Notes under the pieces: generated by a model
What the model was told of the DNA's origin: nothing
The model's database searches: none
What the model saw: only the letters and a program-made list of their open reading frames with translations
Source: Chitinophagia bacterium
GTDB lineage: Bacteria; Bacteroidota; Bacteroidia; Chitinophagales; Chitinophagaceae
Assembly: GCA_021324175.1 (NCBI GenBank)
Contig: JAJPJP010000247.1
Coordinates: 8,149-72,148, forward strand
DNA: 64,000 nucleotides
Direction: 5' to 3'
Position numbers and translations under genes: made by a program
Shown: one piece after another, positions 28,012 through 33,661 of the stretch
Layout: the number at the start of each line of letters is the position of its first letter
Position numbering within the stretch: position 1 is the stretch's first letter

Positions 28012-30573
28012 ATGGAAGATAATCTTACGCCAGAGCAGACCAGAGATGGTAATCGCATCGTCCCGGTGAATATCGAAGAACAAATGAAGACTGCCTACAT
28101 CGACTATTCAATGTCGGTAATCGTCGGAAGAGCCCTCCCGGATGTCCGCGACGGTCTCAAACCTGTACATAGGAGGATTCTGTTTGCGATGCACGAAATG
28201 GGCATGAATTTTAACAGGCCCACAAAAAAATGCGCCAGAATTGTGGGAGAAGTATTGGGCAAATATCATCCTCACGGTGATACGGCAGTTTACGACGCGC
28301 TTGTACGTCTTGCTCAGGAGTGGAACATGCGCTACATGTTGGTTGATGGCCAAGGGAACTATGGAAGCCAGGATGGGGAAGGACCAGCAGCAATGAGATA
28401 CACTGAAGCCAGATTACACAGGATTTCAGATTCGATGCTGGCAGACATTGAAAAAGACACCGTCAATTTTCAACTAAATTTTGACGATTCTCTCGAAGAG
28501 CCAGTCGTTCTACCCAGCAGGATACCCCAATTGATTATCAACGGTTCATCTGGAATCGCCGTGGGCATGGCCACGAACATGATGCCTCATAACCTATCTG
28601 AGGTAATTGACGCGTGCATAGCTTTTGTCGATCACCGCGAAATCACTATCGAGGAATTGATGCGGCATGTCAAGGCTCCGGATTTTCCGACAGGAGGGGT
28701 AATCTATGGGATTGAAGGAGTGAAGGCTGCAATGCATTTTGGTAGGGGAAGGGTCGTGCTTCGCGGGAAATTGCGGATTGACACTAAAGCAAGCGGAAGA
28801 GAGCAGATTATTATTACCGAAGTTCCTTACCAGGTAAGCCGGGACGTGTTGACCGAGCGGATCGGTCAATTGGTCAATGAAAAAATTGTGGAAGGAATTG
28901 CGCATGTGAACAATGAGTCCAATGATAAGGAGGGTACAAGGATTGTAATCGATTTAAAAAGAGATGCGATTGCTAACGTCGTGGTTAACCAGCTTTATAA
29001 AAACACTGAACTGCAAACATCTTATGGAATAAACAATGTGGCTCTTGTAAAGGGAAGGCCCAGGACGCTGAACATTAAGGAAATGATCAGTGAGTTCGTT
29101 GAATTCAGACACGAAGTCGTGGTTCGCAGGACTCAATTTGAACTAAGAGAAGCAGAAAAGAAAGCGCACATTCTAAAGGGTTATTTAATTGCACTTGATC
29201 ACTTGGATGAGGTGATTCAGTTGATCCGCTCGTCAGCGACACCAGACGCAGCCAAAGATAAGCTTATTCATGCTGACTGGGGCCTCGACGAGATCCAGGC
29301 CAAGGCGATATTGGAATTGCGTCTTCAACGGCTGACGGGGATGGAGCGAGACAAAATAAAGGAAGAATTCGATTCATTGACGAAATTGATCAGCGAACTT
29401 AAGGAACTGCTTGCCGATGAAGTGAAGCGATTCGATCTTATCAAACAAGAACTTCGCGAGGTCAAGGAAAGATTTGGCGACAAAAGAAAGACAGAAATAA
29501 CATATTTGGATAACGAAGTCCGAATTAAAGATCTTATTAAAGAGGAGGATGTGGTCATAACCATTTCGCACCTTGGCTATATTAAAAGAACTTCTGCCCG
29601 GGAATATCGGCAACAACGGCGAGGCGGACGCGGAGCTATCGGCGGAAAAACCAGGGAAGAAGATTACATTGAGCACCTGTTTGTCGCCTCTACGCATCAT
29701 ACCATGCTCTTTTTTACCGAAAAGGGTCGATGTTTCTGGCTAAATGTTTACGAAATCCCTGAAGGGGACAAAACGAGCAAGGGGCGCGCAATTCAAAACT
29801 TAATTCAACTACCGCAAGACGACAAGGTAAGGGCAATTATCGATGTTAAGGATCTTAAAGACGAAGCTTTTGTTAACTCGCACTATATCGTTCTATGTAC
29901 CAAGCATGGCATCATTAAAAAAACGTCGGTAGAAGAATTCAGCCGACCTAGGCTGACTGGAGTCAATGCCGTTACAATTGTGGAAGGCGATCAATTACTC
30001 GAAGCGAAACTCACAGACGGAAATAGTGAGATTATGATGGCTGTGAAAAGTGGTCGTTCGATTCGATTCGAAGAAGAGAAGGTACGCCCGACCGGTAGGG
30101 GGGCGATTGGGGTTGCGGGGATTGAAGTCGAAGGCACAGAAGACGGAGTAATCGGAATGATTTGTGTGAATAGAGAAGATAAAAGCCGGACGGTTCTTGT
30201 CGTCAGTGAGAAAGGCTACGGCAAAAGGACGTCAATTGAGGAATACCGTGTAACAAACCGTGGGGGGAAGGGGGTAAAGACCATCAGTGTTACCGATAAA
30301 ACCGGGGCGCTTGTCGGAATCTTAGACGTCACTGAGAAAGAGGATTTGATGATAACCTGTAAAAGCGGAGTCACTATTCGAATGGCAGTCGGCCAGATCA
30401 GTGAGCAGGGCAGAGCTACTCAGGGGGTAAAGTTAATCCGCTTAGATGAAGGCGATGAAATAGCGGCAATAACAAAATTGGATGAACACGTGGGAAATGG
30501 CAATGGTAACCATACCGATGAGCCCGGCATTCAGAGCGGAGAACAGCAATCGGAGAGTATCGAACCGGAATAA
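28012..30573 (+). CDS. gyrA: DNA gyrase subunit A
   Basis: RALPDVRDGLKPVHRR, YHPHGD, AAMRYTE (catalytic Tyr), GyrA box QRRGGRG; -7 element TAAATTTG at 27952. Confidence 0.97.
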   Translation: MEDNLTPEQTRDGNRIVPVNIEEQMKTAYIDYSMSVIVGRALPDVRDGLKPVHRRILFAMHEMGMNFNRPTKKCARIVGEVLGKYHPHGDTAVYDALVRLAQEWNMRYMLVDGQGNYGSQDGEGPAAMRYTEARLHRISDSMLADIEKDTVNFQLNFDDSLEEPVVLPSRIPQLIINGSSGIAVGMATNMMPHNLSEVIDACIAFVDHREITIEELMRHVKAPDFPTGGVIYGIEGVKAAMHFGRGRVVLRGKLRIDTKASGREQIIITEVPYQVSRDVLTERIGQLVNEKIVEGIAHVNNESNDKEGTRIVIDLKRDAIANVVVNQLYKNTELQTSYGINNVALVKGRPRTLNIKEMISEFVEFRHEVVVRRTQFELREAEKKAHILKGYLIALDHLDEVIQLIRSSATPDAAKDKLIHADWGLDEIQAKAILELRLQRLTGMERDKIKEEFDSLTKLISELKELLADEVKRFDLIKQELREVKERFGDKRKTEITYLDNEVRIKDLIKEEDVVITISHLGYIKRTSAREYRQQRRGGRGAIGGKTREEDYIEHLFVASTHHTMLFFTEKGRCFWLNVYEIPEGDKTSKGRAIQNLIQLPQDDKVRAIIDVKDLKDEAFVNSHYIVLCTKHGIIKKTSVEEFSRPRLTGVNAVTIVEGDQLLEAKLTDGNSEIMMAVKSGRSIRFEEEKVRPTGRGAIGVAGIEVEGTEDGVIGMICVNREDKSRTVLVVSEKGYGKRTSIEEYRVTNRGGKGVKTISVTDKTGALVGILDVTEKEDLMITCKSGVTIRMAVGQISEQGRATQGVKLIRLDEGDEIAAITKLDEHVGNGNGNHTDEPGIQSGEQQSESIEPE

Positions 30574-32438: not shown

Positions 32439-32658
32439 TTTAAGTTTAATCACTCTTCGACACTTCAAGCATTTATTGGCCACTTGAAAAAGCCGGGATT
32501 TTTTCTCTCCGTTAGGTGCTTACAACATACTTTTTGAATTGGCCGAAAATCGACAAGAGTTTAATCATGGTGCAGGACAGGCCATTGGATAATTTCCTTT
32601 CCTTAATAGGGCCGGGTAAAAAAATACAAAGAACGCCACTCCAGGTCTTTGAAGCGCT

Positions 32659-32687
32659 ATTTAACATAAAAGTATCTTATAAGACTT
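32659..32687 (-). other. dif-like site L (7-bp spacer)
   Basis: atttaacataa-aagtatc-ttataagactt; the first 11 bp are identical to the E. coli XerD arm. Confidence 0.7.
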
Positions 32688-32716
32688 CCGATTTCTTTTT
32701 CTCCTTTTTAAAAAAA

Positions 32717-32791
32717 GCCAATTGAGGCTATGCGATTTTTTTGCACTATATAAGGTTCTTTAAACAAAAAAATCGCATAGTCTCAATTGGC
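32717..32791. repeat. 27-bp inverted repeat (26/27 match) with 21-nt loop
   Basis: gccaattgaggctatgcgatttttttg (32717-32743) vs caaaaaaatcgcatagtctcaattggc (32765-32791). Confidence 0.95.
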
Positions 32792-32817
32792 ACTAAAGGA
32801 TTATGAAAAAGAATCGG

Positions 32818-32846
32818 TTGTTTTATAAGACTATATTATGTTATTT
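32818..32846 (+). other. dif-like site M (inverted relative to L and R, 7-bp spacer)
   Basis: ttgttttataa-gactata-ttatgttattt; XerD-type arm matches ttatgttaaat at 9/11. Confidence 0.6.
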
Positions 32847-33068
32847 AGCTCGGTTTGTGCCGCAAGCGTTTCGTAAGTTTTTCTCCAAACGAAACGCGGG
32901 CGGTGAGGGCAGGAAGCCAAGCGGATTTTTGTATTTGTTTTTTTCTAAGCAAACCGAGCCAAAGGCGAGGAAAAAAGTATCTTTTGAGCAAAGACAGCAA
33001 TACAATAAAGAATTTTTAGAAAAGAGAGGTCTCGGCCACACGTTTGTAAGAGAACCGGAGCGGCTTTA

Positions 33069-33335
33069 TTAGCCCTCTCCACTTACTTCGGGATCGTAAT
33101 CTGCATCATGCCCTTCTTTGTCTTTTAGATAATTGTTTACCTGTTCCAGAATAGAATATTCTGTTTCTAGCATTTTTTTGAAAGTTATCCAATATTGGCC
33201 TCGGCCAGAATCTTTCCCAGTTTCGACTTTTTCATAAAGTCGTTTAACTTCTCTAGATATAGTTATCTGGTTGCATAGTAATAGCTCTAGCAATTCCCTG
33301 TCGGTAAAATCGGTAAGCGAGTTTTTGATTGCCAT
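33069..33335 (-). CDS. Small soluble hypothetical protein (element cargo), 88 aa
   Basis: From ATG 33335 (or 33344): MAIKNSLTDFTDRELLELLL...; helical with an acidic tail. The upstream extension of the 160-aa track ORF is antisense to the next gene. Confidence 0.55.
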   Translation of the reverse strand: MAIKNSLTDFTDRELLELLLCNQITISREVKRLYEKVETGKDSGRGQYWITFKKMLETEYSILEQVNNYLKDKEGHDADYDPEVSGEG

Positions 33336-33357
33336 AAAAGACATTATTTTTAGGGCG

Positions 33358-33588
33358 ATGAAGTTATTGAATAATATCTGGGTAAAAGGTATAGCGGCAG
33401 TTATTTTCGTTGTCATCTTAGTTTGGGGAATTGATAAAATTCGCCCATTCATGGATGCCTTCATGCACTCCATACTGTATGCCTTTGGTGCCTTTCTTGG
33501 TATGTATGTTATCATACCAGTTTTGGTAATAGCAGTTCTGTATTTTATCATTAAAGCCTTGCAAAGGCTTTTTAAGAAGCGTGGCTAA
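33358..33588 (+). CDS. Small two-TM membrane protein (element cargo), 76 aa
   Basis: MKLLNNIWVKG..., two hydrophobic segments, basic C-terminus QRLFKKRG. Confidence 0.55.
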   Translation: MKLLNNIWVKGIAAVIFVVILVWGIDKIRPFMDAFMHSILYAFGAFLGMYVIIPVLVIAVLYFIIKALQRLFKKRG

Positions 33589-33633
33589 AAAAAACAAATA
33601 CAAAATATCCCGCTAGGGATAGCCCGAAGCGCT

Positions 33634-33661
33634 ATTTAACATAATATAAATTATAGGAAAT
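33634..33661 (-). other. Probable chromosomal dif site R (XerC/XerD)
   Basis: Minus strand reads atttcctataa-tttata-ttatgttaaat: perfect XerD arm, 6-bp spacer, XerC arm resembling B. subtilis acttcctagaa. Confidence 0.8.

What the first reader, a model, noticed from the sequence alone, without database searches (positions are those of the whole stretch)
32651..33661. Candidate miniature Xer-exploiting element at dif with three alternating dif-type sites and no integrase
Seen: site L (32659-32687, atttaacataa-aagtatc-ttataagactt), inverted site M (32818-32846, ttgttttataa-gactata-ttatgttattt) and canonical site R (33634-33661, atttaacataa-tataaa-ttataggaaat). A 19-bp direct repeat lies 975 bp apart, and the only cargo is two tiny unknown ORFs, set between housekeeping genes. 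Known: IMEXs such as CTXphi, VGJphi, TLCphi and the gonococcal genetic island integrate at dif using host XerCD, and Acinetobacter pdif modules have alternating sites. Inference: a non-autonomous ~1-kb satellite or cassette, or a reduced prophage. I know of no described equivalent in Chitinophagaceae, but could not search.
Basis: partly seen in the sequence, partly recalled or inferred. Interest (0 to 1): 0.85.

Follow-up and report, generated by a model that had tools for sequence, protein, structure and literature searches.

The report
Hairpin gene cassette stacked at dif
A 975-base piece of DNA with no recombinase gene sits in the chromosome's unlinking site (dif) and belongs to a family of swappable small-gene cassettes in soil Bacteroidota that likely fold as single strands and are likely inserted by the cell's own XerD enzyme, an integron-like route of gene capture that I did not find described.

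Summary
Confirmed and reinterpreted. R is the genome's only canonical dif. L and M are not two independent sites but the base of one 190-nt hairpin (z -10.6), and read as a 975-nt circle all inverted repeats nest. The same L-hairpin-M-cargo-dif layout, with unrelated cargo, recurs in 11 of 82 dif loci of the genus (58 plain), forms tandem arrays, and occurs in 6 tailed-phage records. M's spacer copies the host's own dif spacer next to the XerD arm (first 3 nt in 20 of 20 hosts); L's never does (0 of 20), and the XerC side is always mismatched. Best reading: a non-autonomous cassette integrated as a folded single strand by one XerD-side exchange, the mirror image of CTXphi, rebuilding dif each time. 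Weak points: one exchanged joint would be mismatched, no free circle or same-species empty site was seen, no replication helper was found, and no Xer activity was tested. Cargo: one real 88-aa orphan-family gene and one doubtful membrane ORF. This scan noted similar cassettes on other DNA before; eight paper searches found no description.

The parts
32670..33644 (+). The cassette as a 975-nt unit (predicted circle, opened just after the XerD-type arm)
   Evidence: Direct repeat spacing 975; circular fold nests all end stems; boundary placement is inferred
32651..32669 (+). Left copy of the 19-bp direct repeat: 8 nt of cassette-type right end plus the XerD-type arm of site L (32659-32669)
   Evidence: the 8-nt part matches right ends of other units
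32659..32687 (+). Site L: XerD-type arm, 7-nt spacer (32670-32676) unlike dif, XerC-type arm (32677-32687); 5' strand of the hairpin
32717..32791 (.). Inner inverted repeat, 27-bp arms (32717-32743, 32765-32791), 21-nt loop; structure kept, sequence variable across the family
   Evidence: perfect run of 16-32 bp in 34 of 36 units
32818..32849 (-). Site M: inverted partner strand of L; spacer (32829-32835) copies the first 4 nt of the host dif spacer; outer XerD-arm bases degenerate; followed by conserved AGC
32859..32904 (+). Left-end hairpin with conserved loop motif TAA-R-TTT (32874-32880); function unknown
   Evidence: motif in 24 of 36 units; one compensatory pair in a related contig (C32872T with G32891A)
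32927..32944 (+). Left arm of the far inverted repeat that closes the cargo loop
   Evidence: own-pair best in 18 of 24 units
33069..33335 (-). ORF A, 88 aa, all-helical orphan family; likely the real cargo gene (the frame stays open upstream to 33551)
   Evidence: 17 other hits up to E 0.001 plus one long-protein match, alignment, model pLDDT 86.5, no Pfam/PADLOC/PHROG/fold match
33358..33588 (+). ORF B, 76 aa, hydrophobic, doubtful; overlaps the upstream extension of ORF A on the other strand and ends in the conserved right end
   Evidence: only itself found; hydropathy
33588..33605 (+). Right arm of the far inverted repeat
33572..33633 (+). Conserved right end of the cassette (AGAAGC..GGCT, A/T tract, small hairpin, GCGCT)
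   Evidence: alignment of 26 right ends
33634..33661 (+). Site R: the chromosomal dif; XerD-type arm 33634-33644 (predicted to come from the cassette), 6-nt spacer and XerC-type arm from the host
32440..32658 (.). Non-coding left flank; possibly the decayed end of an older cassette (only the last 8 nt are clearly cassette-like)
   Evidence: similarity without the last 8 nt not above shuffles (74 of 300 as good)

Best explanation
This is a recombinase-free gene cassette lying in the chromosomal dif site, one of a family with conserved ends and swappable cargo, that is likely integrated as a folded single-stranded circle by a single exchange predicted to be made by the host XerD. Shown: the layout, the hairpin, the family, the arrays, the covariation. 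Inferred steps: (1) the + strand exists at times as a 975-nt circle in which the cassette's XerD arm, L's spacer and L's XerC arm pair with M to form one attachment site, held by the far inverted repeat; (2) XerCD synapses it with dif and XerD, probably switched on by FtsK as at any dif, cuts after the XerD arm; the dif spacer strand pairs with M, which sets host range; (3) XerC cannot finish because both cassette spacers differ from dif on that side, so replication resolves the junction; (4) the product is L - loop - M - cargo - rebuilt dif, so the next cassette goes in next to dif and arrays grow; (5) in duplex form L is unlike dif at both ends of the spacer, which would keep the cassette from being cut out during normal dimer resolution. 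How the single strand is made and moved is least known; tailed phages carrying these modules are the likeliest vehicles.
For: Hairpin z -10.6; nested circular fold. 40 distinct hairpin units found, 36 kept after dropping 4 of odd build. M spacer equals host dif spacer at nt 1-3 in 20 of 20 hosts and nt 1-4 in 18 of 20 (permutation mean 9.7, 0 of 100,000); by unit 22 of 24 at nt 1-3; in the genus alone 14 of 17 exact, 17 of 17 allowing G.T wobble. L equals dif at nt 1-3 in 0 of 20; L's last spacer base is G or C in 36 of 36 (the pattern left it free), dif's is A. L's XerD arm is host-like (34 of 36 are one of two dif variants), M's is degenerate outside the inner 6 nt. Far inverted repeat matches its own unit best in 18 of 24, mean 14.6 vs 7.5. 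GNA-triloop mini-hairpins in left ends: 21 on the + strand vs 2 on the - strand (18 vs 2 of 36 units). Four-unit array ending at dif in G059 with the same downstream genes; two-unit arrays in G111, G170, L090. Homologous cargo (70% aa) under different ends in L028 and L115. Intact end-to-end junction with paired far repeat in phage record L161. XerD, a second Xer-type gene and FtsK are in the genome on other contigs; no integron integrase over cut-off in 5 of 5 cassette-bearing genomes. CTXphi precedent for hairpin attP, one exchange, replication, and blocking by heterology: PMC3442271 (introduction read), PMC3089051 (passages).
Against: In CTXphi both attP strands track the target dif (PMC3089051, Tables I-II, passages); here only M does. 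L matches dif at spacer nt 1 in just 2 of 20 hosts, so one of the two exchanged joints would be ligated across a mismatch; L tracks dif only at nt 2 (4 of 4 vs 2 of 16, Fisher p 0.003), which hairpin pairing with M could also explain. The 19-bp repeat allows a crossover anywhere inside it. No circle or empty-site joint in the four runs laid, all contigs only. No Rep, relaxase or activator found in cargo. The arm assignment rests on 11 of 11 identity with the Vibrio XerD arm; PMC3091885 (passages) says dimer resolution was unstudied in this phylum in 2011. Hosts are related, 14 of 20 share one dif spacer, so only 6 are informative (6 of 6 at nt 1-3) and p-values overstate. This unit itself has no GNA triloop.
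Confidence: 0.68

Rival explanations
1. Same cassettes and same folded site, but an unlinked or phage-borne recombinase (integron-integrase-like) makes the crossover inside the shared XerD-type arm, whose ends resemble the attC core; dif is only the target.
For: Removes the mismatched-joint problem, since the crossover would lie in identical sequence. The genome holds 6 further tyrosine-recombinase hits; phage record G502 has two. The attC core resemblance is recalled, not tested.
Against: Does not explain why M's spacer tracks the host dif spacer exactly at the XerD cut side. No IntI over cut-off in 5 of 5 genomes. A complete 52.6-kb phage with the hairpin has no tyrosine recombinase (G504). 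No recombinase gene was seen beside the dif loci whose ORFs I listed.
Confidence: 0.14
2. A satellite of a not-yet-found single-stranded phage (or a duplex TLC/GGI/pdif-type module): it is copied and packaged by a helper, the conserved hairpins being replication origins, and the arrays are piles of satellites rather than a gene-capture platform.
For: Conserved inner stem, left-end loop motif and GNA hairpins look like single-strand origin signals. ssDNA phages of Bacteroidota are reported at dif, some with a third dif-like site (PMC3091885, PMC9719478, passages). Two phage copies are opened at a similar place in the 5' side of the inner stem (L037, L162). This is compatible with the best explanation for the integration step.
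Against: No ssDNA-phage-like record among the 6 viral records hit in 4 scans; all six have tailed-phage genes. Unit sizes run from 563 to 2,083 nt with unrelated cargo. A duplex pathway needs spacer homology between L and dif, which is absent.
Confidence: 0.13
3. A fixed terminus feature or a scar of local duplication and inversion of dif, without mobility.
For: No free form was seen; many loci hold only decayed pieces (5 partial, 8 right-end-only of 82).
Against: Patchy presence (11 of 82), different cargo under conserved ends, compensatory sequence change in the stems, arrays and phage copies.
Confidence: 0.03

Closest known systems
CTXphi-type IMEX (Vibrio cholerae CTXphi and RS1; folded attP(+))
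   Same: No integrase; two inverted dif-like sites on one strand fold into the attachment site; product is one rebuilt dif plus two non-canonical sites; spacer heterology on one side blocks the second exchange; tandem arrays (PMC3442271 introduction, PMC3089051 passages).
   Different: Homology to dif and the duplicated arm are on the XerD side, not the XerC side; only the partner strand tracks dif; no Rep, capsid or repressor; 0.6-2 kb; cargo is one or two unrelated small genes; ends pair around the cargo.
TLCphi and the gonococcal genetic island (XerD-first duplex IMEXs)
   Same: XerD-first chemistry at dif; degenerate outer XerD-arm bases (in M).
   Different: Those use a duplex attP and complete both exchanges, TLCphi with its own activator XafT and HUH Rep (PMC9226527, PMC6744903, passages). 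Here the site is a hairpin, the XerC side is mismatched and no activator or Rep is found.
Sedentary chromosomal integrons (IntI, attI, attC)
   Same: Small mostly single-gene cassettes of mostly unknown function, one preferred gene orientation, folded single-strand sites conserved in shape rather than sequence, newest unit inferred next to the platform site (integron features from my own knowledge; cargo).
   Different: No IntI; platform site is dif; hairpin is 150-190 nt with full Xer arms and leads the cassette; a second stem joins the two cassette ends.
Acinetobacter pdif (Xer) modules
   Same: Small cargo between Xer sites; a hairpin route has been proposed for them (PMC7399989, passages).
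   Different: There the two inverted sites flank the cargo on plasmids; here the inverted pair encloses a non-coding stem, the cargo lies outside it, spacers are 7 nt and the location is the chromosomal dif.
dif-integrated ssDNA prophages of Bacteroidota (Alpavirinae BMV1-7; phiCjT23-like)
   Same: Same phylum, same target, no integrase; BMV4-6 have a third dif-like site near one end (PMC3091885, PMC9719478, passages).
   Different: Those are 4.6-8.4 kb with Rep and capsid genes; side of exchange not reported in the passages I read.

Membership tests
IMEX (broad sense) | Inserted at the chromosomal dif with a canonical dif left on one side | tested here: met
IMEX (broad sense) | No recombinase of its own; host XerC/XerD present | tested here: met
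IMEX (broad sense) | Mobile: present in some relatives, absent in others | tested here: met
   11 complete, 58 plain of 82 loci; no same-species empty allele available
IMEX (broad sense) | Integration depends on XerC and XerD | not testable with these tools
   needs genetics or biochemistry
CTXphi-type IMEX | Two inverted dif-like sites folding into a forked hairpin | tested here: met
CTXphi-type IMEX | Spacer homology with dif next to the XerC cut, none next to the XerD cut | tested here: not met
   reverse pattern in 20 of 20 hosts
CTXphi-type IMEX | Both exchanged strands can pair with their new partners | tested here: not met
   M yes; L matches nt 1 in 2 of 20 and nt 1-3 in 0 of 20
CTXphi-type IMEX | Rolling-circle Rep in the element or its helper | tested here: inconclusive
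   none in cargo; helper not found, search limited
TLCphi/GGI-type IMEX | Duplex attP able to complete both exchanges; XafT-like activator (TLC) | tested here: not met
   L spacer differs from dif at both ends; no family hit for cargo, XafT itself not searched with a profile
Integron | IntI integrase | tested here: not met
   0 of 5 genomes over the TIGR02249 cut-off (G000 88% complete)
Integron | Array of small cassettes separated by folded sites | tested here: met
Integron | attC consensus (R/L boxes, extrahelical bases) | not tested
   no attC model run; resemblance of the arm ends to the core is recalled
pdif module | Cargo flanked by two inversely oriented 28-bp sites with 6-nt spacers on a plasmid | tested here: not met
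   chromosomal; 7-nt spacers; no match in 72,556 plasmids; M and R do flank the cargo in inverse orientation, the one feature shared

The most novel reading that the evidence does not exclude
Chitinophagales run an integron-equivalent with no dedicated enzyme: the housekeeping XerD, driven by FtsK, inserts folded single-stranded gene cassettes at dif by a one-sided, mismatch-tolerant exchange, a mirror class is loaded on the other side of dif by XerC, and tailed phages shuttle the cassettes (and may use the same hairpin to integrate themselves). This would be a fourth Xer-hijacking pathway and a living model of the step from Xer/dif to integron integrase/attC.
Probability: 0.4. Interest if true: 0.92.

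Novelty: new variant of a known kind. Interest (0 to 1): 0.78.

Why it matters
All folded-strand Xer hijackers in the papers I read use XerC, and the XerD-first ones use duplex DNA. A folded substrate with homology only on the XerD side would be a new pathway, and the family gives exact predictions (which strand, which bases set host range). The arrays behave like integron platforms without an integrase, which bears on how integrons arose from Xer, and they are an unexplored store of small genes (26 of 29 cargo proteins from other units have no Pfam hit; 3 are trypsin-like). A ~330-nt pair of ends that inserts cargo at dif could also become a tool for Bacteroidota genetics.

Tried and rejected
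Other copies in the own genome: none. Structured-RNA reading: Rfam gave 28 matches, all far below gathering scores, mostly miRNA hairpin shapes; GNA strand bias and Xer arms favour DNA. Annotated phages (50,697) and plasmids (72,556): no match. Strict pattern in viral contigs: 0. Phylum sample: 1 of 400 other genomes hit, and it is not a hairpin (-17.9 kcal/mol), so not found beyond the order in those searched; in the order sample 4 of 400 others. Sequencing runs: no RNA holder listed; contigs only, no joint for a circle or empty site, which is no evidence either way. ORF A function: Atlas hits under 0.9, no fold match; its one homologue in 400 order genomes has no dif-like site within 1.5 kb, so it is not cassette-specific. 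ORF B: Atlas gave no answer. Bacteroidota promoter motif (recalled) absent from this unit, present in 5 of 26 right ends. Left flank as an older cassette: not significant. I first read G013's right flank as a permuted circle; one search showed it is a separate mirror-type hairpin. KOPS-like counts were uninformative. A pair count on alignment A2 failed on a mistyped structure and was dropped. Three primary papers on CTX/VGJ base-pair rules were not held, so how much mismatch Xer tolerates rests on a review's passages; supplements were not read.

Full report
Observation. The three sites, their letters and the 19-bp repeat 975 bp apart are as described. The neighbours are gyrA, a TPR protein and a GNAT acetyltransferase on the left, and a polysaccharide flippase, a 177-aa protein and a gene I read as a phosphoglycerate dehydrogenase (by eye) on the right. 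R is the only canonical dif in the assembly, and a dif pattern finds one site in most of 83 of 104 genomes of the genus. The unit is 36.9% G+C against 42-44% for its flanks. Titled records that carry the same modules read Puia sp., Chitinophagaceae and Bacteroidetes, so the host is likely in that family.

L and M are the base of one hairpin: -52.9 kcal/mol, z -10.6 (the other strand z -9.4). It has paired XerD-type arms, a bulged spacer, paired XerC-type arms and a 27-bp inner stem. A separate exact 18-bp inverted repeat links the sequence just after M with the sequence just before R. Folded as a 975-nt circle, these stems nest into one rod with the cargo in the end loop. No Rfam family reaches its threshold.

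It is a family. DNA and pattern searches and a survey of 82 dif loci in the genus gave 40 distinct hairpin units; 4 of odd build (L094, L095, L112, L114) were dropped before counting. By script 10 of the 82 loci hold a complete unit, and G064 is an eleventh; 5 hold a partial one, 8 only a right end and 58 are plain (31 of these read for 4 kb or more, others for less). G001 has the same right-hand genes at the same distance from a single dif; G058 has the TPR gene 337 nt from a plain dif. G059 has four complete units in tandem ending at dif, before the same downstream genes as here. Units also occur in 4 of 400 other genomes of the order, 3 in another family, and were not found in a 400-genome sample of the phylum. 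Unit length is 563-2,083 nt; the main cargo ORF usually points away from the right end. Of 29 cargo proteins from other units, 3 are trypsin-like and 26 have no Pfam hit; PADLOC hits are only those protease domains. Two units share 70%-identical cargo under different ends.

What the spacers say. With one unit per host, M's spacer equals the host's own dif spacer next to the XerD-type arm at nt 1-3 in 20 of 20 and nt 1-4 in 18 of 20 (permutation mean 9.7, 0 of 100,000); L's does in 0 of 20. Only 6 hosts have a dif spacer other than the commonest, and all 6 match at nt 1-3; hosts are kin, so the p-value overstates. The misses seen (3 of 17 in the genus) are C for T, a G.T wobble. On the XerC side L ends in G or C in 36 of 36 while dif ends in A. 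L's XerD arm is host-like and M's is degenerate outside the inner six bases. The far repeat changes sequence from unit to unit yet matches its own partner best in 18 of 24. GNA-triloop mini-hairpins, which I recall as stable in single-stranded DNA, lie on the + strand 21 times and on the - strand twice in left ends, 13 and 4 in right ends; this unit has none.

Mechanism. The arm ATTTAACATAA is the reverse complement of the Vibrio XerD arm (PMC3089051 Table I, passages; PMC12715192, passages). By established Xer chemistry XerD cuts this strand right after that arm. Such a cut in a folded circle and in dif gives exactly L - loop - M - cargo - dif, with the repeat ending at the arm, the incoming dif strand pairing with M, and the XerC step blocked, so replication would finish. 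This is CTXphi's scheme (PMC3442271, abstract and introduction) with the two recombinases swapped. XerD (over cut-off), a second Xer-type gene and FtsK are encoded on other contigs; no integron integrase reaches cut-off in 5 of 5 cassette-bearing genomes. All of this paragraph beyond the layout is inference.

Against it. In CTXphi both attP strands change with the target dif; here L does not, so one joint would be sealed across a mismatch (L matches nt 1 in 2 of 20; it tracks nt 2, Fisher p 0.003). A crossover inside the shared arm by another enzyme would avoid that but leaves M's tracking of dif unexplained. No circle or empty allele was seen; the four runs were contigs only, and X1 may be the source of this DNA. 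X4 holds a related unit with one compensatory pair. No source of single strand was found.

Phage copies. Four viral scans gave six records, all with tailed-phage genes. L161 holds the whole end-to-end junction with a matching far repeat, the form predicted for the circle. L163-L165 hold short 59-94-nt hairpins; L163 lies in a complete 52.6-kb phage with no tyrosine recombinase. L037 and L162 hold M - cargo - junction, opened on the 5' side of the inner stem. Whether phages carry cassettes or use the hairpin to integrate is open.

Cargo here. ORF A (33069-33335, -) is an 88-aa helical protein with 17 similar-length homologues and no family or fold match. ORF B has no homologue and may be a shadow.

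Comparison and novelty. It works like a CTXphi-type IMEX and is arranged like an integron array, but fails a defining test of each (side of homology; IntI). Eight paper searches found CTXphi, TLCphi, pdif modules and dif-integrated ssDNA prophages of Bacteroidota, and no cassette family of this kind and no XerD-side folded-strand pathway; the library lacks most subscription journals. I saw passages of PMC9719478, PMC3091885, PMC9226527, PMC7062461, PMC12715192, PMC3089051, PMC7399989 and PMC6744903, the abstract and introduction of PMC3442271, and listings only for the rest. After I had logged my reading, look-ups showed that this scan had noted similar cassettes on other DNA; these are unchecked notes, used as a lead to the phage scans and not as support.

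Verdict. Real, mobile by comparative evidence, a new variant of Xer-exploiting element; confidence 0.68 in the XerD-side folded-strand mechanism, interest 0.78.

Noticed in passing
G013 (L011), G055 (L067), G073 (L040), G081 (L121), 0-600 nt right of dif: A mirror class on the XerC side: dif itself is the 5' arm of a hairpin with the same kind of inner stem, and the partner's spacer matches dif by 1-3 nt on the XerC side; G073 also has a far degenerate site 582 nt on. Likely XerC-loaded cassettes.
   Followed up: partly
L163:8007-8100 (record G504), L164:8007-8066, L165:3748-3807: Tailed-phage records with a shortened 59-94-nt hairpin that could extrude from duplex DNA; G504 is complete and has no tyrosine recombinase, so it might integrate at dif through the host Xer.
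   Followed up: partly
L037:2424-3031 and L162:7435-8007: Two phage copies are opened at a similar place just 5' of the conserved CGA motif of the inner stem, hinting at a second, nick-type site (n = 2).
   Followed up: partly
L034:1927-2718, L117:2553-3458, L003:1892-2749: Three cassettes carry trypsin-like proteases with hydrophobic N-termini that hit protease domains of defence models.
   Followed up: no
L051:228-468, L118:37-277, L098:824-918: AT-rich loci (L051 titled Flavobacteriaceae) with a 7-nt-spacer site and an inverted canonical dif 94-240 nt away, no cargo between.
   Followed up: no
L094, L095, L096, L112, L114: Hairpins with two perfect XerD arms and other spacer logic; L112 lies beside a Rep-like or virus-like gene block judged by eye. 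L094, L095, L112 and L114 were left out of the counts; L096 repeats L094.
   Followed up: no
G081:C86 and G013:C67, right of dif: Near-identical mirror hairpin ends in two genomes whose dif spacers differ, suggesting recent transfer.
   Followed up: no
window 28012-30573: gyrA lies 3 kb from dif; the gyrA-TPR block is also beside dif in G105 and near an inverted site pair in L114.
   Followed up: no
window 33069-33551: ORF A's frame is open for 72 more codons up to an ATG just inside the right end, where cargo genes of other units start, antisense to ORF B; which of the two is used is unresolved.
   Followed up: partly
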